From positions 1,472,001-1,536,000 of the forward strand of contig CM000208.1 of the NCBI GenBank assembly GCA_000002445.1: DNA of 64,000 nt, given 5' to 3'. Source of the stretch: Trypanosoma brucei. Taxonomy: Eukaryota. The translations under genes were made by a program, and so were the position numbers. Positions within the stretch are counted from its first letter, which is position 1. The number at the start of each line of letters is the position of its first letter. The notes beneath the pieces were generated by a model that saw only the letters and a program-made list of their open reading frames with translations, made no database searches and was not told where the DNA came from. Positions 12,871-62,260 of the stretch are shown here, in pieces.

Positions 12871-12884
12871 AAAAAATATCGCGC
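12871..12884 (-). promoter_or_regulatory. Candidate polypyrimidine tract upstream of the XRN-like gene.
   Basis: A11 run on the + strand within a purine-rich stretch approx 400 nt upstream of the start at 12478. No splice-site mapping is possible from sequence alone. Confidence 0.2.
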
Positions 12885-17680: not shown

Positions 17681-18050
17681 AATTATTAAATGTTAGCTAC
17701 TAATTCATAAATTAGAAAGAGCGTTGAAGAATTTTTTTTTGATGGGTGGTGGGGAAGTGTAATGTTTTTGAATTGTATGTTCGTTGTATCACAGTTTTAT
17801 TATTTTCATCGATGTTTCGCTATCGATGATGGTGTCGGTCTTGTGATTTTATTAGATTCTTCAAAGCGGGTCTCACTTTTATTATTATTTGGAGTGGCTG
17901 AACCGCACTTTTCTGTTGGTTATGCGATGAACGAAGTATATGCTGGGTTCTTCACTGTTATTAAGTCTCCTTTGTGAACGAAACCAGAGGCGTATCCGAC
18001 GTCTGCAATATTCGTATCACGCTGTTTATATTCGTTATTGTTTAAAATGC

Positions 18051-18062
18051 AAAAAAAAAAGA
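18051..18062 (-). promoter_or_regulatory. Candidate polypyrimidine tract (U10 on the sense strand) that could serve trans-splicing of NEK copy 2.
   Basis: An A10 run on the + strand lies approx 380 nt upstream of the ATG at 17676. More purine-rich + strand sequence (aggaaaggaaaggaaac) lies just beyond. This is a positional inference only. Confidence 0.25.
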
Positions 18063-18320
18063 TGATTTAGAACTTTCCGGTCAAAATGAGAATCCCCGAA
18101 ACTTACCACACCGCTGAATTATAAATAGCAGAGGAAAGGAAAGGAAACAAATGGGAGTTTACTTGGCGACGTATATAATAAATGACTTTCGGTTGGTCCG
18201 TTCAACAGCGCCTGCTTGCTGAAACAAATTCTCGCATTTTGATTTGCAATCAGTTTTTCCTTACGAGGAGTGTGCCACGCATTATCCTGGAATATCTATC
18301 GCAGAATATCTCACTAACCT

Positions 18321-18352
18321 TAGATGTATAATAATAATAATAATAATAATAA
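18321..18352. repeat. (ATA)n trinucleotide microsatellite.
   Basis: ataataataataataataataat. Confidence 0.9.
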
Positions 18353-19316
18353 TGTAATAACACTGTTGTTACGCATTAAATGATGAAGGGAGAAAAAAAA
18401 CATTTAGTGGCACTAGGAGCAGGAAACACGGAAATTTTGTTTACACATTCATCTGAATACAAATACAAAATAAATAAATATATATATATATGCAACATTA
18501 TAGTTCACGCGTTCCACGGAGTGACAGAGGCATGTGTGGGCAAATGACGAAAAATTATTCGATTCCTTCCCATTTAAAAACAGAAAAAAATGCTTGTCAC
18601 GCCTCAAAAATTCTTCCTTTTTCCCTTTTGTGTGTGTGTGTTTTGGAGAAGGGGGAAGAGGGGGGAAAGGAAAGGTTTGAATGGGGGTTGGAGCGAACGG
18701 GGCGACAAACAGTGAAGACGCAAAAGCAGAAAACACAAACACATAAACACAAAAAAAAAAGGATTCACAGTTTTTTTTTAAAAAAAAGACAGCTGGGACT
18801 GAGATAACACGTTAACGGAATTTTCTGCCATTTGTAATCTCCAGTCCTTCCACAGACACACACACACACACACCCTTCCTCTCCTCTTCACCACGTTGGC
18901 ACAAGAAAAAGAAAACACGCACAAATATACATTTCATTTTAGACGAACATAAAACCATTCACAAGCATCAAGACTTCACAAACCCCTCAAAAAAAAAAAA
19001 ATCATAATAACAGTTTTTCTTTTTTAAGCCCTTTCATGAAACTACCGAGATTCAAAATGGGTGCCCTCCACATGATAAAACACTTTTCCTCCTCCTCCGC
19101 CCCCCCCCTTTTCTTTTTCATTTATTTTTTTTTGTTTTTTTTGTTTTACTTCGCCCACCTTTAACCAAATATTCCTCATGTAACACAAAGATACGCGCGT
19201 AAGTAAAAATAAAAATAAATTCGAACTCAACATAAAGGTAAGGAAACACCTACAAGGGTAGAAACATATGCGATAACACATTCCCTCAAAGGTACATGAG
19301 CTAAAGCAATGGGAAG

Positions 19317-19415
19317 GTGAAAAGTAATGGATTGTGTTCGGGTTCGGGGCGTGGGTTTGGGTTCGGGGCGTGGGATGTGGGATGTGCGATGTGGGGAAAC
19401 AAAACAAAACAAAAC
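19317..19415. repeat. G-rich degenerate tandem repeat (GGGTTCGGGGCGTGGG x2, GGGATGTG x3) followed by (AAAAC)6.
   Basis: gtgttcgggttcggggcgtgggtttgggttcggggcgtgggatgtgggatgtgcgatgtggggaaacaaaacaaaacaaaacaaaaac. It has 4 or more G-tracts of 3 or more. Confidence 0.8.
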
Positions 19416-20889
19416 AAAAACGAATTGATGAAGTAACGTGAGATTTTCATAAATGAGTTATCGCATACGCAAAAAACAAAAAAAACAACATATTCCCAAA
19501 CACGGAAAGCAACAGCGACAACAAGCACGACAAGAGAGGAAACGATTAACATTGACAACTAATAAAATAGGGAGTAAAGGGTTGTGCGTGACTGCGTGTT
19601 CGCGTTTGCTTGTTCGTAAGTGAGTAGAGGTGGGATATAAAATAAACATAAATTTTATAAAGCAAAACAAAGGACAAACAAGCAAATGAGAAACAGAAAT
19701 GTAAGGGAATAAAGAGGAATGAAAAAAAAAACAAAAAACAAAAAAAAAGAAGATAACATGCAACAAGTAGTGTTACGCAGCAAACACAACTGCACGTTGG
19801 GTGGGTAGCCAAACAGAGCAAAAATCATATGCGCCCACGCAAAAGGTTTAAAAAAAAACCAAAAGGGAGAGGGGGGAAAAAAGGAGAAAAAAGAAAGCAA
19901 CTAAAAAAAAAGTTTAAAAAGCAATAATTTAAACATAAAAAATGGAGAGGAACGAACGGCCACCGTTTTTTTTTTCCCTCTTCCACAAGTAGAGAGAAGA
20001 GCACACGCTCATAAAATGATGGGGGAAGAGTGGTTAGAAATTTAACTACCCAATACCCACATCTTTATGAAATTGACAACCCAATAAGTTTGAAATAACG
20101 TGAAAAGAAAAAAAAGGAGGGGAGAGTAGGGAATAGAAGGATGGAACTCTGTTTCAGGGACATTTCATTCAGTAAACAAATACTTAAACGCCTATTTCCT
20201 TTCAACAGAAAGCTAAACCCGCATTATTAACCATAACCCTCAAAGGGAGAGCACAAAAAGTTGTCGTAGTAATAATGATAGCAATGTACACCTATCTTGT
20301 TATTTCTTTTTCTTTTCCTTTCTTTCTTTTTTATAAAAAAAAAAAAAAGAAAAATGTTCGCTTTCTTTCCTCACCAAAACACAACAATTTACCTTACCTC
20401 CTTCATATTTTCTTGATCCTATCCCGTGATCCACGCCCCCCCCCCCATATTTCCCTTTTCCCCCTCAAAAACAAAAAACATAACGTCGTCCTTGTTTGCT
20501 AAATAATGACAGCAACAGGCAACACATTTCACTACAAACGCTGTGACACAACATTCTTATTTGGCACCGCACGTCACCACTCAACGGTCCACAACATTAA
20601 CAACAATGGCGATGCACAATACAGGTGCATGCGTAATATTTCCTTTTCTATATATGAATAAATAGGCATGACAAGAGACGCATTTACTGATATCACTCTA
20701 TCTATCACATTCCACCTGGATTTTTGCGGCGAGCAACCACACGGTGTAATGCCGTTGTTTATTCAACAAAAAAAAAACAAAGTCCTCTTTATCCCCTTCA
20801 TTTTTTTCCCAGACCCCAATTTTTCCCTCCGCCTATAAATAAGTAAAAAAAAACCAACCAAACAAACAAACATTTCTTGTGTTAACCCG

Positions 20890-29887: not shown

Positions 29888-30672
29888 ATAATATATTATT
29901 TTCCTTTTGGCGGCCGCCACTTCTACACACGCACTCCCTTCGCTTCGTTTTCCTCTTGCCCAATTCTCTCTCGCTTTTTCTTTAGGGAAATAAATTCAAG
30001 ATATACATACATATATATATATACGAGCATATATGGGCATATATGTGTGAGAAGAAAAGAAAAAAAGGTAAAGAAGGAAAAAAAAAAGAAACTAAGCCTG
30101 AGTCAGAGGACAAAATGTAAACAAACAACATTAATTGTTTGCCATGTGAACACAGCACTTGTCCTCACCTCCTCTTAACATTTATTGCTTTGTACTGCCA
30201 GTTAATGGGGTGGGGAAGAAAAGATAATTTCAATTCAACAACAATACACGCGGTCGCCGACGTGTTGTTTATTCACTCAAAGTCCTGTCGACCACCAGGA
30301 AAGAAAAAAGATAATCCAAGGATGAACCTCAGACACTTTCCTACAGCGGGTTTCACATAAAGGGGAGGGGAAAAAAAAACAAAGAAAAAAGGAAAGGAAG
30401 GGAAGGGAACAAAAGTGATGAAAAGGGGGGAAATGGCGCTAAGAACACAACGCCAGAAAAGGTGTATTTTTTTTTTTTTGAAAAAAGAGCAGAAACAGAA
30501 TATAGTGTGTCAATAAGGTAAAAATACAAGGGTATCGTGCACACTAATTAGAAAAGGGTTGAAAAAAAAAAAGAAACAAATATTATGCACACGGAGGAGC
30601 GGTGGTGGACCACAGTAGCAACAACCTCTAATCACTGGATGATACCCCCATGAAAAAAAAATTATATTAATG

Positions 30673-30712
<40 letters not shown>
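30673..30712. repeat. (TA)n microsatellite, approx 18 units.
   Basis: Visible run tatatatatatatatatatatatatatatatatat. Confidence 0.95.
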
Positions 30713-30713
<1 letters not shown>

Positions 30714-31204
30714 TTTTCTCCCCCATACACCCTAAACACTCACAGCACTCTTACCTCCATTCACATCAGCAATTATGACACCCAACATAACTACAGTGAC
30801 AGAAAGCTGCCTCCATACTCGGAAAGTGGATTAACCTCAACATTCAAAGTTGTCCGACACATGTACCACAACATGGAGAAAAATATCAACTAAGTGAACA
30901 AATGCACGCCAACCTTCATGTGCTAAAGCTACAACTAATATATATGTGTGTTTGTACATATATGTTTACGACAACCTTACCGTATATGTAAACCGATAAT
31001 GGAGAACGAAAGCATTGTCGACCATAACCTGCTTCGCACTGTTCTTTCTTACAATGAAGCTCACCCCGTGCCGAACATACTTCACTTGTCATTACCGGCG
31101 CCACAACAGTTCACTACCGACTCACAAAGATAAAAAAAATGCAAAATAAATTGGGATTGTTGGCACCATATCACCATACACCCCGCTCCCTCACACAGTC
31201 AATA

Positions 31205-31221
31205 AAACCCACCCACCCACC

Positions 31222-31257
<36 letters not shown>

Positions 31258-31258
31258 G
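31205..31258. repeat. Compound (CCCA)6 + (CA)14 microsatellite.
   Basis: cccacccacccacccacccacccacacacacacacacacacacacacacaca. Confidence 0.95.
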
Positions 31259-31621
31259 CCATTGGTGTCAAACCCATCGAAAGAAAACAAGCTTATGTCT
31301 TGAAGAAACACAACAGAAAAAAAAAATCCAGCACCGCTCCCACAAACATATGAATCACCTCACATCCACAGAACACGTTGGCACCGCTGCTCATCACCGG
31401 GGCTGAGGAAAGTGTAAGTGAAGAAGAAGGGAGGGAAAAAAGGAACAAAGAAGTATCTATGCCCGCAGTAGGTAGCCTCGTGTACACCGTCGAAAGACAG
31501 AAGAAACACAAATAAAAGGGAGGAAAGTGAAGAAAGGATGCAATTGGAGAAATAGGGGAGTTGGGAATGGGGCCCATGTACCGCTTCATGCCCAACACAT
31601 CCCCCCCTTGTTGGTGAAACA

Positions 31622-34600
31622 TTAGTCAAAACGACAAAGCCGGAGAAATTCTTCCAACGTAGCGCGGCGCGTCACAATCTTCTCAACCTGTGAATAACAC
31701 TCCCTATCATCCATGACCTCATCAAACATGGCGCGCAGGCCGCGCTCCTCGTGTGTCCCTCCATTGGTTTCGGCATTCCCCTGCTGAGTTTTCTCAGGAG
31801 TCATCAGCTCACAAGTACTGTTCTCATCTACATCCCTGCCGCCGACTGCATCAGCATCTGCGTAAAGATAGTCTACACAGAGTAGGCAGCCTTTAAGCAT
31901 TGACCGCACCTCCATACTAAGCGAAGCCTCATCTATATACGGTAAGACTTCCTCTGCAGTTGATAGCAACCCGTCCAGCAACGGCAAAAACGTCATTTTG
32001 AACACTGCCAACTTCAGGTTGTACGCGGTACGAAGTTCCACCTCTCCCGTGGCGGCCTCGATAGCATCCACCCACAGTTCATCCATGTCTAAGAGGTTTT
32101 CTGCGGTTTCAGTAAAGCGAAAATTAATGAGTTTATAACGGCATGAGTAAATATGATTAACGATGCTACTCAAATCCTGAAACATGATCCTTCGTGCCGC
32201 TCCACGGGTACGAGGAGCTGGCCGGTGCGTCACATACCTTGCTACTCTCGGGGAGAGCGTAGGAATGGTGGGACTGGCATTGAATGTGGGTGGCACTTTC
32301 GCTGCGGGTGACATGCCACCAGATTCGGGCGGTGCGGCTGCAATGACATTCCGCCACCGCTGCCAATATTTACGGAGGCAGTAAAAACTAGTGGTGAAGG
32401 AAAGCACCTTCACCTTAAGGTGGGCACGCTCTTCTATACGAAGGGTACGCACAAGCTTCACCCGCCCGCGCTGCATAACCCGATCGTAAGTGGCCCAAAT
32501 CCACCTGTTCCACCACATCCTCCGCACATTCGTTATGTGGGCATTGAGCATAACAGATGCCATCCTAGAAAGACTATTAAAGTTTTTCCTCTTGATGTTG
32601 CGCAACATATGCTCGCGTCGGAAGTACTTGCAATGAAGCCTCCATGCACGGAATGCATTTTCAGCCGCATTAAACGCATTGATCGTAGAATACCGGGTTA
32701 TCAACATCCCCACGCGATCCGAAATGCCGCAATACAAGGAATTATACAAATCCCGCTGCGCCGTACGGACAGATACTGCGTTTTCTCTGCACTGCATCAA
32801 TGTTAACAACAAACTACTGAAGTTGTTTTCCCGAGACTTTGCATGTGCATCAAGTGTTTTTCTAGCATCAAGTTTTACGATGGACGTGCCGCAATATGGC
32901 CTACAGAACAAAGAAGAACGGTTTGCTTTGATGTCATTGGCATCAAAACAAATCCTGGACACTTTGAGGATCGCAAACTGCTGAAGAACTGAAAGCGGAG
33001 CGAAGTTCACAAAGTGAGCGAGGGGATACTTTTTACACTCGCGGTGCATCTCCAAGTGAACAACCCTACCATTACTAAGCAACGACCCAACTTGCTGACG
33101 CTTCCAATCAACCAAACTGGGTGGGCCCAAGGCTGTGTCAGCAGACGGATGAGGGACCCTCGTGATCACTTTATCGGTCATAGTCGAAAACACCGAAAGA
33201 AGTCCATCATTGCGGGCGATCCACAGCTGGGACTTCATCTGGTCATTGAACAACAGCACAACGGGCTGCGAGTGTCTCTCTATTATGCGCCGCTGGAAAA
33301 CTATACTAAATGTAATGTCATCGGTCCTCTGAAAGGGATCTCTACGAGGGCTTTGGCCCGGGGAAGAACTCCCACCTTTGCCCTTCCGCAACTTGGGTGC
33401 GCACTGCATGTTCATCACGACACCCTCAACGGAAACGTAAAACCGCAAATTATTGAACACACAATACAGGGCACGATTGTTTGTCAACTCATCGAAGGTG
33501 TTGGCAAGTGCTCGGCGTCGAACCTCCTCCGGTGTTGGGTGTTCCAACAACGAGTAGTGGAGCTCAGGGGGATCTGGAAGGAGTCGCATTGTAACCGTTA
33601 TGACTGGCGGGAGATCTACAACAATGCCTGTCACTGTTCCACCATCTATGAGATCCTTGGTGAACTTCGCTTTCCGAGCATAAAGGTCATTAATTTGTCG
33701 ATGATCTGCCGCACCGCTGGTGCGCCCGCGCTCCTCCCTTCTACTGGGGGAACGGCAAGTGTTTACGTAACTCTGTGCTGAAACTTGCTCCACGTAACGT
33801 GCCCCAACTGAGTACGTAGGTAGGTACGATCGGCGCCCCGCAGAAGGCGTTCGGTAGAAGTCAGACACATCGTGCTCAGTTGACTCCGTAAGCACTGTTG
33901 CAACCTTTCCTGTGGCGGTCCTATGTGTACGGGATGCTTTTCTTTTCTTGGTTTTTGCGGACCGAGTTCGTGCGGTAGTTCCGCCATTTGGAGATGCAAC
34001 ACCACCGCCAGGAACGTCTCGACGATCCCTTGTACTAGACGTAAAGGGGTCCCAAGGTGCTTTGCTCCTCTTTACCTTGCCAACTGCTTTTGCGACTTTC
34101 TTCCCTGTCGTTTGAGATGTCCATTGAGTTGCCGCAGTCCGAGGAGTGCTACAGAGTGAACCTCTCAAACCATCAAATACGGACGCCCCAAATCGTGCAG
34201 TCGAAGGTGGCGATACCTTCCTCTGCTTCTTTATTGTGCTTACAGGTGTCCCCCTCCTGCTGGTGGATTTGTGTGGTTGGCACGCATCGGAACCCTTGGA
34301 TGTCGCAACACCATTTTTTCGAGTGCTGCAACTCGTTGTGGTGAAGCAAAGAGATGAAAGCTGCTGTTTTTGTGCCGGTGTTTTTGTTACCCTCGACACG
34401 CCTCTCGCCGATACCTGTGAAATAACACCGATGCCCTGTGACTGCTCCCGCACGGCAAGTCTCGGCGTTGAAGCTGACGTTCGGGTAGAAAGCCGTCCTG
34501 CTCTCCCTCCGGTGTTCAAGCCACTAGATCTGTTGGTTTTCGTGCTCAGTCTACCAGCAACAGACCGTGGGGTATTAACGCGCTGACGCGGACTCAGTGG

Positions 34601-51188: not shown

Positions 51189-52056
51189 CCTCGAGCTTTG
51201 TTAGTGTCTGTTCCTTTTCTTCTCACTCTTTGACGATTTTTTGGGGTTTCCCCTAGTTTGTCCTAATGACTCAGTTTACCCTTTTTTTTTCTCTTTACTC
51301 CCTTTATTTTTTTTTTTTGGTATTGTTGAAGAAAAGTGGTTCACTGACGGTCAAAACACTTCGCAGGTCTTGTTCTTCGCTTATGATACTTGGCTCCTCT
51401 TCTTTCCTTTTTGTTTCCTCTTACTCTTGCTTTTTATTATTTATTTTCTTTTTCCTTCCTCCTTCCCCTACTCTTCTCTTGTCCTCCTTTTTCCTCCTCT
51501 TTTTCCTTGTGTGTGTATGTGTGTTTCCCAAACTTTGCTTCTTCTATTGTCCTAATGTATAGCCACTGCTACTTTCACTTACGTTTCCCCTGAAGCAGTT
51601 TTTTTTTTTTTTGAGGGAGGGTTGCAGCGTGTAGATAAAGCAATCGAACTGACCTTTCTTCCGCGCGCTCGCACGTGTGGCACCGTCGATAATAGTGAAC
51701 AAAAAAAGCGATGGGTTAAAGTATAAATAATGACAAAAACAAAATAAAGAGCAGATATTACAAGCAAACAAAAATACAAATTGACCTTCAATCGTTGACT
51801 CTCACTTCACGTTCCTTCGTTGTATTTTTCCCCCTTCACTCAGAAAAAAAAAGTTTCCTCTCCTTCTTTTCTTTATATCTGGTTCTTCCGAAACAACGAT
51901 AACAATGACGGCAATATGTATTATTATTAAGTTGTCAGTTCGCCGGACGAAGCAGCAAGTGGCGCGGCAAACCATACATGAAGTAGTGGTAGTAGAATGG
52001 GGGGAAAAAGGGAGGCGAGGAAAGCGGAAAGAGAAAAAAGTGAAGAAAAGTGAGAC

Positions 52057-52072
52057 AGTTGAAAAAAAAAAA
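52057..52072 (-). promoter_or_regulatory. Candidate polypyrimidine tract upstream of clathrin heavy chain.
   Basis: A13 on the + strand, which is U13 on the sense strand. It sits in the A-rich 51700-52080 zone approx 0.5-0.9 kb upstream of the CHC ATG, and the intervening sequence is purine-rich on the sense strand. Confidence 0.2.
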
Positions 52073-52375
52073 AGCACAAAATGACACCACAGTAAACCCC
52101 TCGAAGTAACTCAAAGCAGAAAAGAAAGGGTGGACAATGTATGAAACAACATAAGGGAGTCGAGAACTGTTAACCCATCCTCAAATGCCCTCCTTCACTT
52201 ATGTGTATCAAACACAAATTTCAATGTGCCTTCATTAAAAAAATTAAAGAGAATTAGTTAACCGCATCGTAAATTAATCACTTTTTATATGCATCTGCAA
52301 CACATATACAGGTACGTTAAAGTACATACACGGGTACATGTCCCCACACAGACACACACACAGGACACACAGACA

Positions 52376-52422
52376 CACACACACACACATATATATGCAT
52401 ATATATATATATATATATATAA
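52376..52422. repeat. Compound (AC)n / (AT)n microsatellite.
   Basis: acacacacacacacacatatatatgcatatatatatatatatatatat. Confidence 0.9.
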
Positions 52423-55283
52423 GCATAAACAAAATGTGTGTGAATACATGTGCTAGTAAAGCAGCAGCGGATCCCACCACTGTGAGATGTGGCTCCACTT
52501 TCGGTCCCCACTGCTTCCTTCCGGTCCCTCCCGATTGAAAACTCGCCACCCCGCCGCACTCGACTACACGGCTCCCGCACCGCGCCGCACCGCACACACC
52601 GCCACGCCCCCGCTAACTTCTACGGAGTTCGTCAAAACACTCCGACATGCCGACACCTCCTGTAAAAAGTCGTCAAAGACAAAACCGTCCGCCCCTCTTG
52701 GAGGGACACAACAGCCAACCTCCACCGCAACGAAAACGCAATTAAATAAATAAGCATATAAATAATGTCAAGAACAAGGGAAGCCTCCCCTACGAGGCCA
52801 CGCGCCACCAAACACAAGACACAAAACACACAATACAGCCAACCCCACCGCGAGACTGAACGGTAACATGCACTAACTACAGAAATCCCTACACCACTAC
52901 GGTAAACTAAGCAATTCAAAACTGTACTCTAGAGCTTCATCGGCCGAACACACAGCCAAAAAAAAAAAAACGGATTTCCCCCTTTTTTTTTCCAAAACCA
53001 TAAACAAAAACTTGCGTGAATAAATCCAAAAAGGAACGCCACGCGTGTGTTCACCCCCTGCCCAACGTCCATTACATTTTCCTTGAGCAATACATCATGA
53101 GACTCAACATAGGCATAAACATATTGATGTAAATATGTTTACATGCGAATATATTATCCTACTTCTCTTATGCATCTACATTTCAATGAATATCGGTCCC
53201 ACCAACGTCACCTGCCCGAGTTCGACAGAGGAAGCGACTAGCAAACCTTTACACAATGGATGAAAAGAGAAAAACAAACAAAAACAATTATCCGGTAACG
53301 TACCCCATTTTGTCACCTACCCCTTCCCCCGCTATTCCACCAAACAATAATAATGATAATCGTAAATAACAGAATTACACATCAGTTGGTGTGTAACAGC
53401 AACTGTGCGCAATAAAACTACCGCAAATATCCATCCCCTCCCCTTTTCCCATCCCAACGGCCACCGCCCTTCCGTGAGTTATCAGACCGAATCAACGGCA
53501 ACGGCAGCGGGAAAATATGGAAAAGAGAGGGATGAAATGAAACGAACGAGCGAATGGTGTGGAAACCTTGGGGAACAGTCATAATGAGTAACGGAGAAAA
53601 ATTAGAAAAACGAAGTAAACGAAAAGACCGAACGGCTTCTGGGAGGTCAATAACGAAAAAAAAAACAGTTCAAGGAACCCGAGAATGGAAGAGGTAAAGG
53701 AAAAAAGAAAGGGAAAAGAAACAGGACAAAAAAGGAAAGAAAGAGAAAAAAAATGCGCCAACACACAAAGCGGCAGAAGCAAGCACGCGCAAAGATAAGG
53801 CAAGCATGCGGTGCTATGCTCGAACCGTACAAGCACTCGACATATGGACAGTTAAAGAAAATGGGCAGCGTTTTTGCGTTGTTTCGTTTTGTCTCTGCTT
53901 TGTATTGCGAAAAACAACAACAAAAATCTTACATTGCCCTTTTCGCTTTCGAGATTTTCTTTAGTTTGATATGTGCATATCTGAATCTCCTGTTTTCTGT
54001 GTTTTCGTTTCCTACTTTCATTTTTTTATTTGATATAGGTAGTTGGTGAGAACCCACTGGTGTTGCGCTTGCAGATCGTCCAAGTAAGGGTGAAACGAAC
54101 CCGCGCGCAAACACGAGTGGACATGCACAGAAAGAGGGAAGGAAAGAAAGAAGTGCTTGAATATGCAAAAAAGGAAGAAAAGAGCAGGCAAATTGAATAC
54201 CCATCCACATAAGAGGAAGTCTCCTCCACGGGGCATAAACTGCCTTTGCTCATCGATGTGCACACTTTTGAAGTATCGCATTCACCTCTTCAAGTGGTCC
54301 TGTTGCCTTCCAGCAGCGCACACCTCTTCTCATTGCCGTTACACCATTCTTGACTCTCCACTCCTTTGACTTTTCCATCCCTCCTCTCCGCTCTATTCAA
54401 CATAACGCCCTCACCTGTCCCTTTTATCACTCCCCTCCTCCCACCCACATCCAAATGTATTTACCGGCAATTTTCCTCCCACTCCTTCACACTCCATCTT
54501 TCCCCCTTATCCCATCCCCACACTTTTCCTGCTTGTCAATCGCTACGTGACCCGTATATCAAAGTAGGTACGCAAATTCTTCGAGTGGTCACCAGCGAAG
54601 AGAAAAACACGCAAAGACGTAAACTCATGATTGCTCCTCCGCTTCATCCCGTGATGGTACGCTCAGCCACAACCTGTACCGGCAACCACACGCAAACAGG
54701 CAAACGCGGAAAGTAACAAACACAAGAACTTACGCGTGCCATTTATGGGGTGATGAAATATGGAGGGTTGGAGACGTTTCAATATGTCTCCAAAGGAGGA
54801 GAGAAAAAGTAAAAAATAAATAACAAAAGAATGTGCCCAGTAATGGAGACAAAACCCTTAAGGGAACCACGAGCGAAGTGGGTAGACACCTCTCATTTTT
54901 CACGAAAACGATAGAATTACGGGACGCGACGTAGGGGAGTATTTTGATGTCCCCCACTCACCTTACGCCCCCCTCCAACGATCATGATATTGGAGAGCAT
55001 TATAACGTTATTTCCCCCCTTTTAATTTTTTTACTTTTTTTGCTTTTTTTTTGCTCTTTTTTTCCGTTTCGTCTCCTAATGTGGTTTATTTTACTATTTC
55101 CTCCCCCCACTTCCTTCTCTCTTTTCCATCCATTTTACACGTTTAGTGAAGCTCAGACGTTGTAGCACTACAGTAAAATCCTTACCTCCTAACAACTTAC
55201 AAAACTGGAATGCTGTAATGTGTCATCCACCATCTGTTTACACTACGACCACCACCCACAACAAAAACAAAATGAAAAGCACA

Positions 55284-55640
55284 CATTATTGTTTCTTTAT
55301 TACGGATCCCACAGACTCCACAAATATATAAGTACAGTCAAATCGGAGAAGAGTAGTGAGATGGCACCGCTTTATGGCGAAAGTATAGGTAGGCGTCGCG
55401 TGTTCACATTGCGAGGACGGACGGTACATCGGCACCCCTCCTTTACTATCAGTTACCTTATTTCACAGGGCAGGCACGGCTGAGGTGACCGGGTTGGCCA
55501 CAGTTGTAGCATGCGCGTCCACCACCAGCAGCAGCACCGCCAGCAGCAGCGTCAGCAGGGGCATTCGGGCACTCACGGGCAATATGACCCTCCTGTTGAC
55601 AGTGGTAGCACGCACGGCCACCACCCATATTTCCGCCACG
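55284..55640 (-). repeat. Block duplicated between the two UMSBP genes: the C-terminal knuckles plus approx 175 bp of 3' flank.
   Basis: 55284-55515 is essentially identical to 57150-57380 (attattgtttctttattacggatcccacagactccacaaatatataag...). Identity continues into the last approx 60 codons with a small indel. Confidence 0.85.
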
Positions 55641-56234
55641 CATGTTGGGGCACTCGCGGCTGAAATGACCGGGCTGACCGCAATTGTAACAGGCGCGTCC
55701 ACCACCCATCGGAGCGCCACCCATCGGGCCACCACGCATGTTGGGACACTCGCGGCTGAAATGACCGGGCTGACCGCAATTGTAACAGGCGCGTCCACCA
55801 CCCATCGGAGCGCCACCCATCGGACCACCACGCATGTTGGGACACTCGCGGCTGAAATGACCGGGTTGACCGCAATTGTAACAGGCGCGTCCACCACCCA
55901 TGGGTGCAGGTCCGCGGTTGCTGGGGCAATCACGACTTAAGTGGTCGGGTTGGCCACAGGTGTAGCAGGCACGGTCGCCCATTGCCCCTGGGGGAACGTT
56001 CGGACATTCCCTCGCAAAGTGGCCGGGCTGACCGCACCGGTGGCAGTTATTTCCGCCCTCAGCGCGGTGCCTTTTAGCAGTGGAAGCTTCGTCCGCCATT
56101 GTTCTTGCAAAGTTGGCTGAAAGTGTTTTAAAAACTTGAGGAAAGCTAGTTCTCCAGAAGAATGTGGAGGTGAAAGGGGACAGAAACGGAATAATGTAGA
56201 ATGGTGCAGAAGCCACGCACGCACAAATTAGCAA
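55458..56234 (-). CDS. UMSBP2: CCHC zinc-knuckle nucleic-acid-binding protein (UMSBP-like, long form, approx 8 knuckles).
   Basis: Repeated C-x2-C-x4-H-x4-C knuckles (CYNCGQPGHFSRECPN). It lies next to a 5-knuckle paralog, as the T. brucei UMSBP1/UMSBP2 pair does. Confidence 0.8.
   Translation of the reverse strand: MLICACVASAPFYIIPFLSPFTSTFFWRTSFPQVFKTLSANFARTMADEASTAKRHRAEGGNNCHRCGQPGHFARECPNVPPGAMGDRACYTCGQPDHLSRDCPSNRGPAPMGGGRACYNCGQPGHFSRECPNMRGGPMGGAPMGGGRACYNCGQPGHFSRECPNMRGGPMGGAPMGGGRACYNCGQPGHFSRECPNMRGGNMGGGRACYHCQQEGHIARECPNAPADAAAGGAAAGGGRACYNCGQPGHLSRACPVK
55681..55935 (-). repeat. 96-bp tandem repeat (approx 2.7 units) inside the long UMSBP gene. Each unit encodes one zinc knuckle plus linker.
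   Basis: caattgtaacaggcgcgtccaccacccatcggagcgccacccatcgg... starts at 55681 and again at 55777 and 55873. The protein repeat is ACYNCGQPGHFSRECPNMRGGPMGGAPMGGGR. Confidence 0.85.
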
Positions 56235-57149: not shown

Positions 57150-57485
57150 TTATTGTTTCTTTATTACGGATCCCACAGACTCCACAAATATATAAGTACA
57201 GTCAAATCGGAGAAGAGTAGTGAGATGGCACCGCTTTATGGCGAAAGTATAGGTAGGCGTCGCGTGTTCACATTGCGAGGACGGACGGTACATCGGCACC
57301 CCTCCTTTACTATCAGTTACCTTATTTCACAGGGCAGGCACGGCTGAGGTGACCGGGTTGGCCACAGTTGAAGCACGCGCGGCCGCCAGCAGCAGCGTCA
57401 GCAGGGGCATTCGGGCACTCACGGGCAATATGACCCTCCTGTTGACAGTGGTAGCACGCACGGCCACCACCCATATTTCCACCAG
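57150..57485 (-). repeat. Partner of the duplicated UMSBP 3' block.
   Basis: Direct comparison with 55284..55640. The identical + strand shadow ORFs 55220..55483 and 57153..57347 are a by-product of this repeat. Confidence 0.85.
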
Positions 57486-57744
57486 AGCGCGCATTGGGGC
57501 AGTCGCGGCTGATGTGACCGGGGCGACCGCAGTTGTAGCATGAGCGTCCACCGCCCATATTTCCGCCGGTGCGTGCATTGGGGCAGTCACGGCTGATGTG
57601 GTCAGGTTGACCGCAGTTGTAGCATGAGCGGCCACCGCCCATGTTTCCGCCAGAGCGCGCATTGGGGCACTCACGGCTCATGTGGCCAGGCTGACCGCAA
57701 TTATAGCATGTGCGGGCGTTTGACATCTGCATGTTATCAGCCAT
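57322..57744 (-). CDS. UMSBP1: CCHC zinc-knuckle protein, universal minicircle sequence binding protein-like (140 aa, 5 knuckles).
   Basis: Five CCHC knuckles separated by GGNMGGGR linkers. The size and organisation are those of trypanosomatid UMSBP. Confidence 0.8.
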   Translation of the reverse strand: MADNMQMSNARTCYNCGQPGHMSRECPNARSGGNMGGGRSCYNCGQPDHISRDCPNARTGGNMGGGRSCYNCGRPGHISRDCPNARSGGNMGGGRACYHCQQEGHIARECPNAPADAAAGGRACFNCGQPGHLSRACPVK

Positions 57745-58222: not shown

Positions 58223-59164
58223 CTATGCACTCTGAGAAGAATAACGGTCATACAGTTTGGTTTGGTCATCCCGCGATATCTGAGTCCATCCTTTCGGGTG
58301 AACATGATAAACAGTCACAATGCCACCAGAGGCACCGTCACGATACGTCGCGTGGAAGATTGAGCGGCGCGCCAGGTCACATGCCTCCTCAACAGTGAGG
58401 TTCTTCCGGTAGCCCTGGTCAAGCACACCATAGGCATAAATGGAACCGGATCCCACACTAAAAATTTCATGCTTTACACGCGTGCCCTTGTCGTCCACGT
58501 AATAAAGGGACGGCCCAAACTGATCCCAACCAGCCACCATTGTTCCCATAGATAGCCCGTGGTTGCGGTATTGGTAGGTTATATTTGCCAGAATCTTGCT
58601 TGCGGCTGCTACAGAGATACGGCAGTTGTTACGTAGCTCCCACAGGCGGCACTCCATGCCGAGAACGCGCTCCCAGTACTGGCAATCTGCTGCACCACCA
58701 GCCATCGTACCAAGAAGATATTCGTTTATCTCCAGTACCTTCATAACCGTTTGAGAAGAAATATACTGGCCGGATGAGGCACGGGAGTCAACGGCAATAA
58801 TTATCCCACCGTCAAAGTGAAACCCCAGTGTTGTGGTGCCTTTTTTCATGTCAAGTTTAGGAACACTGCGCGGCACTGGACACGGTAACATGAGTTTCCA
58901 TATGCGTCTGTCAGAGTTGATGCAGTTGCTTGTGCAAAGCGGATCCCTCGTAAGTTCTTCTCCACTGTAGGGCATCACGCTGAAATCGTCCGTGCGATCA
59001 GCACTCACTCCAAGGGGATTATTCAAACCTAGAGCAGATCCATCTTCAGCTGCATCGTTTACACCGGGAATGTTATGCCAAGTGAAAGGACCGATGCGAG
59101 GGCAATCCTTCAGGGAGAACTCCGAGCGGAGAACACTTTCAAAATCTGCCAACATCACCCCCAA
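58223..59164 (-). CDS. PSB5: 20S proteasome beta-5 subunit (PSMB5 ortholog, chymotrypsin-like) with an N-terminal propeptide.
   Basis: The mature start [59 protein letters not shown]... matches human PSMB5 ([59 protein letters not shown]). Confidence 0.9.
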
Positions 59165-59674: not shown

Positions 59675-61741
59675 TTAAACAGCGGCCGTGATGTCTTCGA
59701 TAATTCCCTCCTCGGCAGGAACCTCGCAGTTGCCGTCTACATGGTCGCCAGCAAAATCATCCGGCAACGGCGTGTCTCCTGTCTGGGGTCGAATAGAAAC
59801 ACGATCAAGCCACTCATCAGCAGCTGTTTTCAGCTCCTGCGAGTCAAAGCTCAGGGCATCCTTCACCTCCTCATACGTGAAGCCATCCAATTCCTCCAGT
59901 TCGCGTGGAGTGAGCTCACGGTATCTGGCGAGGCGACGGAGACGGGACACGCGCTGACGTCGGAAAAACGGCCAGTCACGCTCCACGAACTCCTTCCAAA
60001 CGGCGCCAGTGTGCCGGGTATAATATGGGGGAACTGTCACCTCACGCAGCGACCCTACAGGAAGTCCTGAGAGTGAGAATGGCCCAAATGAAATGCGGCC
60101 ACCTCGCTCTACCGTGCGACCCAGGTGCTGCATGAGGTGTGCCACAGGCATTACCTCGCCGCGCACCTTTACCTTCAGTGAGAAACGTGACTTCATCGCC
60201 GGATTCACAAAAAATTCCATGTTCTTGTACTGTTTGCCATTGATTGTAATGCCCTGAAAGTTTAGCTTGTGTGCCAGGACAGGGTCCACCGCTGGTCGTA
60301 CACGCAGTAGGTAAGTCTGCTGGATCATGCATTTCGGGTTTTCGAGGAAACGGGAAAGCTCCCCGTCGTTTGTAAGAAGCAGCAGCCCGTGGGCTCGCAT
60401 AGGAAGAGACCCAACGGGGACAAGGTGATCCATACCAAGTATCCGGGCATGCTTCGTAAATAATGCTCGACCAGCCACGTCATTCCTAGATACAATAACG
60501 TGTGCCGGCTTATGGTACATCCACAGCCTTGGTGGCGCAAACCGAAGGCGCCCACTGTGAGACGCCACATGAATATTATTCTCGGCTCGAACAAGACGGA
60601 ATGGATTCCTTTCCACCACATTATCGACACGTACCTGACCACTGGCAATTACCGCAAGCGCTTCGCGGCGGCTACAAAACCCCGCACGTGGTAAGCACCG
60701 AAGAAGATGAACGGAACCACCCGATGAAACCAACTTGCCCTCCCCTTGACTCGTAAGCCTCCGTGAAAAATCACTTACCGGATCATGGATTGAGCCGCCG
60801 GGTACTAAATCGGCTGAACTGTGAATAATTTTTCCTACGGCTGGGGACAGCACCTCTCCATCCTTCCACGGATCTGTTGAGGGCATCGCTATTTCTTCAC
60901 CGCTTGGTGAACCGTCATGAGATCCGTCAGGGAAAAGGTCTGCCAAAGTGTCAGCTTGGCCACCAAATGAACTTAGATCCTTAGCATCCAATACGTCGCA
61001 CCGAGGAACGTTTTTTTTCAGCCTTCTTTGCACCTCCGAATCTGAAAGCAGTTTTAGCCTAGAGGGAAGATACGTGTCGTTTCGATCTTCACGAAGTTTC
61101 TCTGCCTTAAGTTCCATCAACCTCTCCTTCAACATATCCGTAAGCTGCACAGGGGTATCACCGTACGCATTACCTTCCCCCTGTTCCGGCTCAATTGTGG
61201 GGTCGGCTGGGGAGACGTTACTTTCTTCTGCAACGGCAAAGCCGTGATCTTTGGGGTTCGCGCCGGACAACTGAAGCACATCGGGCGATAAAGCGTTTAG
61301 CCGTGTGCGGCTGTCAGAGGGTGAACCTCTCCACTGCAGACATTCTGATTGTCTTTTCACATCGCTACGTATGTCGAAACTCCCTTCATCGAAGAATGAT
61401 GGTGCAGCGCCTTTTTCCTCCCTTGGAGGGGCGTACCCGTCAACATTCCTGGTGCGTGTGATATCCTTCCACGTTTGCTTTCTCCGCTCATCTGCCGAGT
61501 AACGGGTGGTTGGGGCCTTCTTAATGTGTGACATGGCAACCGGGAAGTGTCGCTCCACATCCTGAAGTTTCTCCGCATCTGCTACGTCCACACTTCGCTG
61601 CAGGGCCGCTGCCGACGAAGATACACCTTTCTTCTTAGGAAACCAATGTTTCACCTTTCGCTCCTTACTACCAGTGCTGTTGACCGGTCGGCGCTGAACG
61701 CACGGCAGTACGACGAGCAGTGGCAGACTGACACGGCGCAT
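59675..61741 (-). CDS. RsuA/RluB-family pseudouridine synthase-like protein with an S4 RNA-binding domain and a long N-terminal extension. It is probably organellar and possibly catalytically inactive.
   Basis: S4-like LLRCLPRAGFCSRREALAVIASGQVRVDNV (aa approx 346-375). The synthase core is MYHKPAHVIVSRNDVAGRALF...VPVGSLPMRAHGLLLLTNDGELSRF, where bacterial RsuA/RluB have PVGRLDxDTxGLLLLTNDG. The Asp of GRLD is not present (SLP instead of RLD). The N-terminus MRRVSLPLLVVLPCVQRRP resembles a mitochondrial presequence. Confidence 0.75.
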   Translation of the reverse strand: MRRVSLPLLVVLPCVQRRPVNSTGSKERKVKHWFPKKKGVSSSAAALQRSVDVADAEKLQDVERHFPVAMSHIKKAPTTRYSADERRKQTWKDITRTRNVDGYAPPREEKGAAPSFFDEGSFDIRSDVKRQSECLQWRGSPSDSRTRLNALSPDVLQLSGANPKDHGFAVAEESNVSPADPTIEPEQGEGNAYGDTPVQLTDMLKERLMELKAEKLREDRNDTYLPSRLKLLSDSEVQRRLKKNVPRCDVLDAKDLSSFGGQADTLADLFPDGSHDGSPSGEEIAMPSTDPWKDGEVLSPAVGKIIHSSADLVPGGSIHDPVSDFSRRLTSQGEGKLVSSGGSVHLLRCLPRAGFCSRREALAVIASGQVRVDNVVERNPFRLVRAENNIHVASHSGRLRFAPPRLWMYHKPAHVIVSRNDVAGRALFTKHARILGMDHLVPVGSLPMRAHGLLLLTNDGELSRFLENPKCMIQQTYLLRVRPAVDPVLAHKLNFQGITINGKQYKNMEFFVNPAMKSRFSLKVKVRGEVMPVAHLMQHLGRTVERGGRISFGPFSLSGLPVGSLREVTVPPYYTRHTGAVWKEFVERDWPFFRRQRVSRLRRLARYRELTPRELEELDGFTYEEVKDALSFDSQELKTAADEWLDRVSIRPQTGDTPLPDDFAGDHVDGNCEVPAEEGIIEDITAAV

Positions 61742-62260
61742 TCACTACAACACCTATCAACCTCGCCTATAGGGCAGAAACCGCAATGCGAAGGAAGAAA
61801 GCGGTCATGCACCGATAAGGGGAAGCGCCACAAAGTCATTCTTACGAGGTGTTTTATTCATACTGCGCAGTACCACGGGAATAAAGCACACTACTGACGA
61901 TGACGTTTTGTCCCCCCCCCCTCCCCCCTCGGACACAACGCTCGGCACTGCGGAGCCACATCATTCGACGACGTGACAATGCAGAGCACGGCAGTATACA
62001 AACGAAGGGGTAAAGGAGCACAATAATCCAAGTGGGAGGGGCAAAAAGATGAAACGAAGAACCACTAACAATTATTGTTAATCATAAATAACACAAAGAT
62101 AAGCGCCGCCAGAAAATGAGTCGCAGCAGGCAACAAACAATGAAATGACCAACCGATATGCAGCTACCTTTCCCCCTGGATGCTGCATTACCCACGTAAG
62201 TTCCGTCTCTCAAACTAACCCCCTTCCTATCTTTCGCACATTCAGAGTTCGCCTGGGGAA

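What the first reader, a model, noticed from the sequence alone, without database searches (positions are those of the whole stretch)
59675..61741. Pseudouridine-synthase homolog lacking the catalytic Asp and carrying a 340-aa N-terminal extension
The RsuA/RluB fold is clear: an S4 domain plus the (K/H)P-x-G-(V/L)-(V/I)-S and GLLLLTNDG motifs. At the position of the universally conserved GRLD catalytic aspartate (E. coli RsuA Asp102), the sequence reads VGSLPMRAHG, so there is no Asp. This codon block is at approx 60362-60421. Together with a presequence-like N-terminus (MRRVSLPLLVVLPCVQRRP) and a long acidic/Ser-rich extension, this suggests a catalytically dead Psi-synthase-like RNA-binding protein. 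Kinetoplastid mitoribosome assembly intermediates are known to contain inactive rRNA-modification-enzyme homologs used as scaffolds, so a dead synthase would fit that precedent.
Basis: partly seen in the sequence, partly recalled or inferred. Interest (0 to 1): 0.55.

Follow-up and report, generated by a model that had tools for sequence, protein, structure and literature searches.

The report
Dead RluB-type pseudouridine synthase, mitochondrial
This Trypanosoma brucei gene (Tb927.10.6090) encodes a mitochondrial protein that keeps the shape and RNA-binding parts of the bacterial rRNA-modifying enzyme RluB but has lost the residues needed for chemistry, so it most likely serves as an RNA-binding helper in mitochondrial ribosome or RNA biogenesis, adding one more case to a pattern already known in these parasites.

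Summary
ORF 59675..61741 (minus strand, 688 aa) is T. brucei Tb927.10.6090, annotated "tRNA pseudouridine synthase A, putative". That name is wrong: the S4 and catalytic domains (residues 344-575) are RsuA-family and closest to RluB.

- **Active site lost.** Pro447 sits in the catalytic Asp column (GRLD reads GSLP). Motif III (EG[KR]NRExR) is also lost.
- **Loss is old and fixed.** Every kinetoplastid orthologue lacks the Asp, down to the deepest branch (Papus). All 116 bacterial-type and non-kinetoplastid eukaryotic representatives with a readable motif keep GRLD, including Pharyngomonas and Dictyostelium.
- **Still under constraint.** The core is 88% identical between T. brucei and T. cruzi. 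It keeps the S4 SRR motif and is far more basic (+11 to +20) than active relatives (+1 to +8).
- **Extra modules.** The 343-aa N-terminal extension holds conserved islands, and there is an unreported conserved helical C-terminal module.
- **Published proteomics.** The protein is imported into mitochondria and is listed as co-purifying with mitoribosomes. No solved kinetoplastid mitoribosome or assembly-intermediate structure contains it.

Best reading: a non-catalytic RNA-binding scaffold in mitoribosome or mitochondrial RNA biogenesis. The mechanism is inferred. It is a new member of a known kind (dead modification-enzyme scaffolds such as mt-LAF3, mt-LAF4 and RPUSD3).

The parts
59675..61741 (-). 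Complete ORF of Tb927.10.6090 (688 aa plus stop), an RsuA/RluB-type pseudouridine-synthase homologue
   Evidence: 686/688 identical to the T. b. gambiense protein. The gene order UMSBP2-UMSBP1-proteasome beta5 (Tb927.10.6080)-this gene-Q_salvage fixes the locus tag. The tag, the old ID Tb10.70.0780 and the 76.9 kDa mass are in PMC5436138 supplements.
61742..61805 (-). 5' context: in-frame TGA (61744-61742) directly before the ATG, and a polypyrimidine tract plus AG (about 61803-61766) typical of a trans-splice acceptor
   Evidence: read directly from the sequence. The splice-acceptor role is an inference.
61622..61741 (-). Presequence-like basic N-terminus (residues 1-40, MRRVSLPLLVVLPCVQRRP...)
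   Evidence: 12 K+R against 1 D+E in the first 50 aa, and most orthologues start MRR. TargetP-positive and ATOM40-dependent in PMC5436138.
60713..61741 (-). N-terminal extension (residues 1-343), mostly predicted disordered and net acidic after residue 100, with conserved islands
   Evidence: No Pfam or PDB sequence match.
61517..61561 (-). Conserved N-terminal motif DVERHFPVAMSHIKK (residues 61-75), within the predicted helices 53-96
   Evidence: It recurs in the most divergent members (Papus P0128 IEHRFHSVMSHLR; P0131).
61088..61144 (-). Most conserved element of the extension: helix LTDMLKERLMELKAEKLRE (residues 200-218; D202, M203, E206, R207, L208 and L211 invariant)
   Evidence: invariant columns; block conservation 0.84; helix 199-223, pLDDT 81-86; present in Papus and other deep members.
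60533..60712 (-). S4 RNA-binding domain (residues 344-403) with an intact CSRREA motif
   Evidence: S357, R358 and R359 are conserved in both dead and active proteins.
60017..60532 (-). Pseudouridine-synthase catalytic-fold domain (residues 404-575), degenerate active site
60386..60415 (-). Degenerate motif II, VGSLPMRAHG (residues 443-452). Ser445 replaces the Arg and Pro447 (60401-60403, CCT) replaces the catalytic Asp.
60119..60163 (-). Degenerate motif III, RGEVMPVAHLMQHLG (residues 527-541). Bacterial EG(K/R)NRE(V/I)(R/K) has lost K529, N530, R531, R534 and R535.
59792..60016 (-). Conserved helical C-terminal module (residues 576-650: WKEFVERDWPFFRRQRVSRLRRLARYRELTPRELEELD...), specific to the dead clade
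   Evidence: helices 580-650, pLDDT 82-91; W582, F585, D589, P591, R594, R597, L601... invariant; orthologue-like hits extend into it.
59678..59791 (-). Acidic C-terminal tail (residues 651-688) ending in the conserved ..IIEDIT.. motif
   Evidence: 10 D+E against 1 K+R; D683 invariant.

Best explanation
Tb927.10.6090 is a nuclear-encoded, mitochondrially imported pseudoenzyme. It descends from an RluB-type (RsuA-family) 23S rRNA pseudouridine synthase.

Before the last common ancestor of Kinetoplastea it lost the catalytic Asp (now Pro447), the neighbouring Arg (now Ser445) and the basic motif III, so it cannot isomerise uridine. It kept the S4 domain, the overall fold and the substrate-cleft framework (KP, TNDG, Tyr477, R546, R549). 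It also gained many surface Arg/Lys residues, a conserved helical C-terminal module, and a long N-terminal extension with short conserved motifs.

The most likely way it works:
1. The S4 domain plus the dead catalytic cleft clamp a mitochondrial RNA segment without turnover. By ancestry this is most probably a domain V (H93-like) region of 12S rRNA.
2. The N- and C-terminal modules recruit or hold other proteins.
3. The protein therefore acts as a chaperone or placeholder at a stage of mitoribosome biogenesis that the solved intermediates do not capture.

Shown: the fold, the loss of catalytic residues, the clade-wide conservation, and (from the literature) expression, import and a mitoribosome co-purification listing. 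Inferred: RNA binding, the RNA target and the scaffold role.
For: **Fold and family**
- Pfam PF00849 above its gathering score, plus S4.
- RluB is the best hit in the PDB by sequence (E 5e-16), by profile (E 3.6e-18), in NCBIfam, and by structure (Foldseek E 1.4e-16, TM 0.72; core pLDDT above 90).

**Catalytic loss**
- D to P447 and R to S445.
- Motif III K/N/R/R/R lost.
- Of 45 columns conserved in at least 10 of 11 active relatives, 32 are unchanged. The changes include the motif II and motif III active-site positions.
- Deeper members carry P, H or S at the Asp position.

**Ancient and selected**
- Dead clade monophyletic in 100 of 100 NJ bootstraps, and it includes Prokinetoplastina (Papus), Cryptobia and Bodo.
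- Core identity to T. brucei: 88% for T. cruzi, 80% for Leishmania, 59% for Bodo.
- Synteny is conserved in a deep genome.

**RNA binding retained or strengthened**
- The SRR motif, K411, R425, R546 and R549 are shared with active enzymes.
- Eleven basic positions are gained.
- Core net charge is +11 to +20, against +1 to +8 in active relatives.

**Expressed and mitochondrial**
- 12 peptides detected by MS (PMC5724185 supplement).
- Abundance ratio 0.24 in purified mitochondria and 0.48 in the organelle fraction on ATOM40 RNAi (PMC5436138 supplement).
- Flagged under 'Mitochondrial Ribosomes (Zikova 2008)' and TargetP.

**Precedent**
- mt-LAF4 (dead TruD-type) and mt-LAF3 (the D211A mutant is fully functional) act as non-catalytic factors in T. 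brucei mitochondria.
- E. coli RluB itself is trapped on stalled pre-50S particles (PMC11912913) and is seen bound to a pre-50S intermediate (PDB 9cl9).
Against: - No trypanosome chain in any solved mitoribosome or assembly-intermediate structure matches the protein or its 27-sequence profile. If it is an assembly factor, it acts at a stage not yet visualised, or too loosely to be modelled.
- The mitoribosome co-purification is known to me only through a check-mark in a secondary table. Zikova 2008 could not be read.
- I found no phenotype, localisation image or RNA-binding data. The gene is absent from the supplements of the complex map PMC4798371 and of a 2026 kDNA screen.
- E. coli RluB re-expression did not rescue assembly in a strain lacking 10 modification enzymes (PMC11194073). 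An assembly role is therefore not established even for the ancestor.
- The RNA target is pure inference from ancestry.
Confidence: 0.55

Rival explanations
1. It is a dead RNA-binding pseudoenzyme, but its clients are other mitochondrial RNAs (pre-edited or edited mRNAs, gRNAs, imported tRNAs) rather than the assembling ribosome. It would act as a stabilising or processing cofactor, comparable to the mRNA effects reported for mt-LAF3 or to PUS-like proteins in RNA granules.
For: - It is absent from all solved pre-mitoribosome structures.
- Loss of mt-LAF3 also lowers edited mRNAs, so PUS-fold proteins in this organelle are not restricted to rRNA.
- The surface is remodelled: 10 ancestral basic positions are lost and 11 new ones gained, which suggests a changed RNA specificity.
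- The long motif-bearing disordered extension fits a hub protein.
Against: - In the PMC5436138 reference table it is flagged under mitochondrial ribosomes, not under the RNA-editing or MRB1 columns.
- Its ancestry is an LSU rRNA enzyme.
Confidence: 0.25
2. It is a non-catalytic partner subunit that targets or activates a catalytically competent mitochondrial synthase, for example the RluA-type paralogue Tb927.3.2130. This is the role proposed for human RPUSD3 with RPUSD4 and TRUB2.
For: - McDermott et al. describe RPUSD3 as lacking the Asp yet being needed for pseudouridylation.
- The same paper names Tb927.3.2130 as a predicted active mitochondrial PUS with all key residues.
- The conserved N- and C-terminal helical modules could be protein-interaction surfaces.
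Against: - There is no interaction evidence of any kind.
- RsuA-family enzymes are not known, to my knowledge, to work as heterodimers.
- The very basic core argues for direct RNA binding as the main activity.
Confidence: 0.12
3. It is still an active pseudouridine synthase that uses a non-canonical nucleophile or base elsewhere in the cleft.
For: Y477, TNDG, KP and most of the fold framework are retained.
Against: - All six pseudouridine synthase families rely on the motif II Asp (established knowledge; the requirement for the Asp is also stated in the papers read).
- Pro occupies that column. The adjacent Arg and the motif III basic residues are gone too.
- The residue at that column varies (P, H, S) in deep members.
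- No dead-clade-specific invariant Asp or Glu appears in the core. D421 and D459 are shared with active enzymes.
Confidence: 0.04
4. It is a decaying relic with no function, that is, a pseudogene-like ORF.
For: Only the loss of catalytic motifs.
Against: - The ORF is intact and syntenic across Kinetoplastea.
- 78 columns are invariant among 27 orthologues, including columns in the extensions.
- The core is 88% identical between T. brucei and T. cruzi.
- The protein is detected by MS and is import-dependent.
Confidence: 0.02

Closest known systems
E. coli RluB (23S rRNA pseudouridine-2605 synthase; RsuA family; PDB 4lab/4lgt, 9cl9)
   Same: - The S4 domain plus catalytic-fold architecture.
- It is the best hit by sequence, by profile and by structure.
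- Shared KP, TNDG, Tyr and R-x-x-R framework.
- RluB associates with pre-50S particles (PDB 9cl9).
   Different: - No catalytic Asp or Arg (GSLP against GRLD), and motif III lost.
- Core net charge about +17 against +1 to +8.
- A 343-aa N-terminal extension and a conserved helical C-terminal module.
- Mitochondrial and eukaryotic.
- Scores far below the RluB equivalog cut-off (58 against 290 bits) and below the TIGR00093 cut-off (68 against 109).
T. brucei / Leishmania mt-LAF4 (TruD-type inactive pseudouridine synthase in pre-mtLSU)
   Same: A kinetoplastid mitochondrial PUS-fold protein judged to be inactive and used as a placeholder or scaffold (PMC7957421, PMC7703582).
   Different: - A different PUS family (TruD, not RsuA).
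- mt-LAF4 is modelled in cryo-EM intermediates. The present protein is not in any PDB entry.
T. brucei mt-LAF3 (Tb927.9.3350; RluA/RluD-type)
   Same: A mitochondrial PUS homologue whose essential function does not need catalysis. The D211A mutant complements, and the motif reads HNLD with the Arg lost.
   Different: - mt-LAF3 keeps the Asp and belongs to the RluA family.
- It is structurally placed at the immature peptidyl-transferase centre.
- The present protein has lost the Asp outright and has no known position.
Human RPUSD3 (RluA-type, Asp replaced by Gly; mitochondrial RNA granules)
   Same: A mitochondrial PUS paralogue that lacks the catalytic Asp but is required for mitochondrial RNA and ribosome function (as summarised).
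   Different: A different family and lineage, with no S4 domain architecture comparable to RluB. The loss was independent.
Active eukaryotic RluB-type proteins (Pharyngomonas kirbyi P0137, Dictyostelium purpureum XP_003284023.1 P0145)
   Same: - Closest non-kinetoplastid relatives by profile score.
- The same S4 plus PUS core.
- Pharyngomonas groups with the dead clade in 64 of 100 NJ bootstraps.
   Different: - They keep GRLD and EGKNREVRK and pass the TIGR00093 cut-off (130 bits).
- They lack the conserved N-terminal motifs and the ERDWPFFRR module.

Membership tests
RsuA family of pseudouridine synthases (RsuA/RluB/RluE/RluF), as a fold or homology family | PUS catalytic-domain fold detectable by profile and by structure | tested here: met
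   - PF00849 at 29.6 bits against a gathering score of 26.8.
- Foldseek top hits RluB, RsuA, RluF and RluE (E 1e-16 to 1e-9, TMt 0.6-0.75).
- The profile against the PDB finds only these.
RsuA family of pseudouridine synthases (RsuA/RluB/RluE/RluF), as a fold or homology family | N-terminal S4 RNA-binding domain | tested here: met
   - Alignment to the RluB S4 domain from residue 344.
- The CSRREA motif is identical to that of bacterial relatives.
- Pfam S4 scores 21.5 bits, marginally under its 22.8 cut-off.
- The region is modelled at pLDDT 90 or above.
RsuA family, as an active enzyme | Motif II GRLD with the catalytic Asp | tested here: not met
   The motif reads GSLP, with Pro447 in the Asp column in three independent alignments. 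All orthologues lack the Asp.
RsuA family, as an active enzyme | Motif III basic cluster (EG[KR]NRE[VI][RK]) | tested here: not met
   It is replaced by RGEVMPVAH. K529, N530, R531, R534 and R535 are lost across the clade.
RsuA family, as an active enzyme | Curated NCBIfam thresholds (TIGR00093 subfamily; NF007976 RluB equivalog) | tested here: not met
   68.1 bits against a cut-off of 109.3, and 58.4 against 290. The active eukaryotic relatives pass TIGR00093 at 130 bits.
TruA family (the database product name 'tRNA pseudouridine synthase A') | Match to TruA-type models or structures | tested here: not met
   No TruA model appears among the Pfam or NCBIfam hits, and no TruA structure appears among the 50 listed Foldseek PDB hits.
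Kinetoplastid mitoribosome assembly factors (mt-LAF / mt-SAF sets defined by cryo-EM intermediates) | Presence as a modelled chain in a pre-mitoribosome structure | tested here: not met
   No trypanosomatid PDB chain matches the protein (E up to 0.01) or the 27-orthologue profile (E up to 1). The PUS-like factors described are RluA-type and TruD-type.
Kinetoplastid mitoribosome assembly factors (mt-LAF / mt-SAF sets defined by cryo-EM intermediates) | Physical association with mitoribosomal particles | not testable with these tools
   The only evidence is second-hand: a mark in the 'Mitochondrial Ribosomes (Zikova 2008)' column of PMC5436138 Supplementary Data 2a. The primary paper is not held.
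Pseudoenzymes derived from RNA-modification enzymes (for example RPUSD3, mt-LAF4) | Loss of catalytic residues together with long-term purifying selection on the fold | tested here: met
   - Catalytic loss.
- Dead clade monophyletic in 100 of 100 bootstraps and spanning all Kinetoplastea.
- 78 invariant columns among 27 orthologues.
Pseudoenzymes derived from RNA-modification enzymes (for example RPUSD3, mt-LAF4) | Demonstrated non-catalytic function (binding or scaffolding) | not testable with these tools
   This is inferred only, from the retained S4 and cleft residues and the high positive charge.
Mitochondrial matrix proteins of T. brucei | N-terminal presequence and import dependence | tested here: inconclusive
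   The composition is consistent with a presequence, but no targeting predictor was available here. Published ATOM40-RNAi SILAC ratios of 0.24, 0.48 and 0.54 and a TargetP flag support import.

The most novel reading that the evidence does not exclude
The protein defines an unrecognised class: the first RsuA/RluB-family pseudoenzyme. It became fixed before the radiation of Kinetoplastea and was rebuilt into a highly basic RNA clamp with lineage-specific N- and C-terminal docking modules. It would act at an early, still unvisualised step of 12S rRNA folding, or it would bridge rRNA maturation to the mRNA editing and processing machinery. In either case it would be a missing component of kinetoplastid mitochondrial gene expression and potentially essential.
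Probability: 0.3. Interest if true: 0.6.

Novelty: new member of a known kind. Interest (0 to 1): 0.42.

Why it matters
Kinetoplastid mitoribosomes are extremely protein-rich and RNA-poor, and they are assembled with the help of many repurposed, inactive RNA-modification enzymes. This gene would add a third PUS family (RsuA/RluB type) to that repertoire.

It appears to have been missed. [quoted passage not shown] The database name (TruA) is also wrong.

The protein is absent from every solved intermediate, yet it is listed as co-purifying with mitoribosomes. It is therefore a concrete handle on earlier assembly stages or on other mitochondrial RNA pathways.

It also offers a clean evolutionary contrast between active relatives (Pharyngomonas, Dictyostelium) and the dead kinetoplastid form, which is useful for studying how an enzyme turns into an RNA-binding scaffold. 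The practical significance is moderate, because the general phenomenon is already well established.

Tried and rejected
**Literature**
- A full-text search for Tb927.10.6090 found one paper, a gene list in a Leishmania lateral-transfer study with no discussion.
- Searches for the old ID Tb10.70.0780 and for UniProt Q38AZ7 found nothing.
- Zikova 2008 (PMID 18364347 / PMC2493383) is not held.
- The gene is not mentioned in the supplements of the McDermott PUS survey, the T. brucei complex map or the 2026 kDNA screen.
- Tobiasson 2021 has no supplements held.
RIT-seq fitness data were not looked up for the same reason.

**Computations**
- The afdb50 fold library was unavailable.
- The tree is NJ on 237 columns with Kimura distances. 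The sister relation to Pharyngomonas (64 of 100) and the choice between vertical mitochondrial origin and lateral transfer remain unresolved.

**Ideas considered and rejected**
- D459 of TNDG or D421 as a displaced catalytic Asp: both are equally conserved in active enzymes.
- Identity with mt-LAF4, which is also called a 'tRNA pseudouridine synthase' homologue of about 69 kDa: mt-LAF4 is TruD-type and present in the PDB, and this protein matches no trypanosome chain.
- A known domain in the N- or C-terminal extension: no Pfam or PDB sequence match.

**Left open**
- I could not establish whether diplonemids or euglenids carry the dead form, because several deep representatives come from unnamed metagenomes.
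Full report
**1. What is there**

The window is Trypanosoma brucei chromosome 10. The ORF at 59675..61741 on the minus strand encodes 688 aa. It is 686/688 identical to the T. b. gambiense protein annotated "tRNA pseudouridine synthase A, putative".

The neighbouring genes fix the locus tag as Tb927.10.6090:
- the tandem CCHC-knuckle genes UMSBP2 and UMSBP1 (Tb927.10.6060 and 6070),
- proteasome beta5 (Tb927.10.6080),
- a Q_salvage gene upstream.

The tag, the old ID Tb10.70.0780, UniProt Q38AZ7 and the 76.9 kDa mass are confirmed in published tables. An in-frame TGA directly precedes the ATG, and a polypyrimidine tract plus AG lies just upstream. The N-terminus is therefore not an artefact of ORF calling. 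All long ORFs in the window lie on the same strand, as expected for a polycistronic unit.

**2.

Family assignment:
- Pfam finds PseudoU_synth_2 above its gathering score, and S4 just below its cut-off.
- The best solved relatives are E. coli RluB (E 5e-16), then RluF, RluE and RsuA.
- A 27-orthologue profile gives the same list.
- NCBIfam ranks RluB first.
- An AlphaFold model built on 38 sequences gives pLDDT above 90 for residues about 340-575.
- Foldseek puts RluB, RsuA, RluF and RluE at the top (E 1e-16, target TM about 0.7), with no TruA structure among the 50 listed hits.

The TruA-style product name is therefore a misnomer.

Catalytic column:
- In the HMMER alignment to RluB, VGRLDV is matched by VGSLPM. 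The MAFFT alignment gives the same columns.
- The Asp column holds Pro447 (CCT, 60401-60403) and the Arg column holds Ser445.
- D459 of TNDG is conserved in active enzymes as well and is not a substitute.
- Motif III, EG(K/R)NRE(V/I)(R/K) in all active relatives, reads RGEVMPVAH.
- Only the first half of the Pfam model aligns (profile positions 2-84 of 152), which is consistent with this degeneration.

**3. The loss is clade-wide, ancient and followed by strong constraint**

All 27 aligned orthologues have G-x-L-P. They include Trypanosoma, Leishmania, Leptomonas, Phytomonas, Angomonas, Bodo and deeper metagenomic forms.

An exhaustive profile search of 1.84 billion cluster representatives shows a score gap between two groups:
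- an orthologue-like group at about 190 bits or more, often extending into the C-terminal module;
- a plateau at about 163 bits or less.

In the plateau, 116 of 116 readable motifs are GRLD. In the orthologue-like group none has the Asp: 19 read G[STGN][LM]P, and the rest read GTLS, GSMH, DILP or KPLH.

Named members include Cryptobia borreli and Papus ankaliazontas, which belongs to Prokinetoplastina, the deepest kinetoplastid branch. Synteny (Q_salvage, then this gene, then proteasome) is kept in a deep genome. The dead clade is monophyletic in 100 of 100 NJ bootstraps.

Active relatives exist in other eukaryotes:
- Pharyngomonas kirbyi (Heterolobosea, also Discoba),
- Dictyostelium purpureum,
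- an MMETSP protist.

They carry GRLD and EGKNREVRK and score above the TIGR00093 cut-off. Pharyngomonas groups with the dead clade only weakly (64 of 100). The ultimate origin is therefore open: vertical descent from a mitochondrial RluB, or a transfer, as implied by the gene's inclusion in a Leishmania LGT study.

Constraint is strong. Core identity to T. brucei is 88% for T. cruzi, 80% for Leishmania and 59% for Bodo, against 64%, 55% and 43% for the whole protein. There are 78 invariant columns among the 27 orthologues.

**4. Anatomy beyond the core**

- **Residues 1-50** are basic (12 K+R, 1 D+E), and most orthologues begin MRR....
- **Residues about 50-343** are mostly predicted disordered and net acidic. 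They contain conserved islands: DVERHFPVAMSHIKK (61-75), SFFDEGSFDIR (115-125), SPDVLQL...HG...SNVSPAD (152-180), and above all the helix LTDMLKERLMELKAEKLRE (200-218), which has six invariant residues. These motifs recur in Papus and other deep members.
- **Residues 576-650** form confident helices (pLDDT 82-91) with many invariant residues (WKxFxERDWPxFRRQRVxRLRRL...).
- **The tail** is acidic and ends in a conserved ..EDIT.. motif.
- None of these regions matches Pfam or any PDB sequence.

**5. What the core retains and what it has changed**

Of 45 columns conserved in at least 10 of 11 active relatives, 32 are identical in the dead clade. These include S357-R358-R359 of S4, K411-P412, D421, R425, G444, L446, the whole GLLLLTNDG block, Y477, R549 and several glycines (R546 is also shared).

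The differences include the active-site positions:
- R439 to H
- R445 to S
- D447 to P
- N530/R531 to x/M
- L547 to G

Ten ancestral basic positions are lost and eleven new ones are fixed. The net charge of the core is +11 to +20, against +1 to +8 in the active relatives.

This is the signature of a protein that has abandoned chemistry while keeping, and probably strengthening and re-specifying, nucleic-acid binding. That last step is inference.

**6. External evidence**

In the ImportOmics study, Tb927.10.6090 drops on ATOM40 knock-down:
- to 0.24 in purified mitochondria (p 0.003),
- to 0.48 in organelle fractions (p 1.4e-4),
- to 0.54 in whole cells.

It also sits in that study's mitochondrial reference set with marks under "Mitochondrial Ribosomes (Zikova et al. 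2008)" and "TargetP". I verified the columns by comparing the row with rows of known mitoribosomal proteins. It is detected with 12 peptides in a correlation-profiling study.

The cryo-EM literature on kinetoplastid pre-mtLSU describes two PUS-like factors:
- mt-LAF3 (Tb927.9.3350) is RluA/RluD-type, and its catalytic Asp is dispensable.
- mt-LAF4 is TruD-type and judged inactive.

It also describes inactive methyltransferases. Neither PUS-like factor is this protein, and no PDB chain from a trypanosomatid matches it. The T. brucei PUS survey lists no RsuA-family member and says that family is described only in bacteria, so this gene seems to have escaped attention.

In E. coli, RluB is enriched on stalled pre-50S particles and is seen bound to an intermediate (PDB 9cl9). 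Its re-expression did not rescue assembly in a multi-knockout strain.

**7. Interpretation**

The best-supported explanation is a mitochondrial, catalytically dead RluB-derived RNA-binding protein that works as a chaperone or placeholder. It most likely acts in large-subunit mitoribosome biogenesis, at a stage not represented in current structures. Its conserved N- and C-terminal modules would serve as docking surfaces.

- 'Dead' and 'mitochondrial' are well supported.
- 'RNA-binding', 'ribosome assembly' and the H93-like target are inferred.

Rivals, in decreasing order of likelihood:
- a non-ribosomal mitochondrial RNA factor;
- a non-catalytic partner of an active PUS, in the manner of RPUSD3;
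- residual non-canonical catalysis;
- a functionless relic.

The last two are very unlikely.

**8. Novelty and score**

Repurposing dead RNA-modification enzymes as scaffolds in kinetoplastid, and human, mitochondria is established. This is a new, apparently undescribed member from a third PUS family, with a distinctive architecture and a clean active-versus-dead evolutionary contrast.

I rate it a new member of a known kind, with interest about 0.4. It is a solid, testable lead for specialists in mitochondrial gene expression, but it is not conceptually surprising.

Noticed in passing
window 55458-56234 (-) and 57322-57744 (-): These are tandem paralogous CCHC zinc-knuckle genes (UMSBP2 and UMSBP1, Tb927.10.6060 and 6070). 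Their internal repeats appear as a 96-nt x2.8 array (98% identical) and an 84-nt x3.2 array. Several overlapping alternative-frame ORFs are artefacts of the repeats.
   Followed up: partly
window 59675-61741 (-): The public product name 'tRNA pseudouridine synthase A' (TruA) is wrong for this gene and its orthologues. No TruA model or structure matches, and the family is RsuA/RluB.
   Followed up: yes
P0137 (Pharyngomonas kirbyi), P0145 (Dictyostelium purpureum XP_003284023.1), P0138, P0152: Apparently active RluB-type synthases (GRLD, EGKNREVRK, above the TIGR00093 cut-off) occur in several non-plant eukaryotes. This runs against the statement in a recent T. brucei paper that RsuA-type enzymes are described only in bacteria.
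   Followed up: partly
locus of P0043 in GCA_041443025.1 (no DNA retrievable): The gene order Q_salvage, then PUS-like, then proteasome beta is conserved between T. brucei and a deep-branching kinetoplastid-type genome.
   Followed up: no
window 12001-14000, 18001-20000, 30001-32000, 52001-54000: These 2-kb bins have low GC (0.37-0.43) and strong positive AT skew (0.24-0.33), unlike the rest of the window. They are presumably long purine-rich intergenic or UTR stretches between minus-strand genes.
   Followed up: no
window 58223-59164 (-): The mechanically listed proteasome beta5 ORF starts at a TTG and carries about 105 aa before the Pfam Proteasome domain. The true start codon and propeptide length were not checked.
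   Followed up: no
window 59678-59701 (-), residues 681-688: The extreme C-terminus carries a conserved acidic motif (..IIEDIT.., D683 invariant in 27 orthologues). It could be a short linear interaction motif.
   Followed up: no
window 60788-60790 and 60836-60838 (-), residues 318 and 302: The window protein differs from the T. b. gambiense DAL972 cluster representative at two positions in the poorly conserved extension (V302 against A, I318 against L). The window is therefore from another T. brucei strain or subspecies.
   Followed up: no
L001 (Logan SRR34068980 contig, 5810 bp), gene 1898-3661: The divergent dead-clade member P0127 (GSMH at motif II, TNDS instead of TNDG) lies in a tight same-strand gene array from an unidentified organism. 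Its taxon was not resolved.
   Followed up: partly
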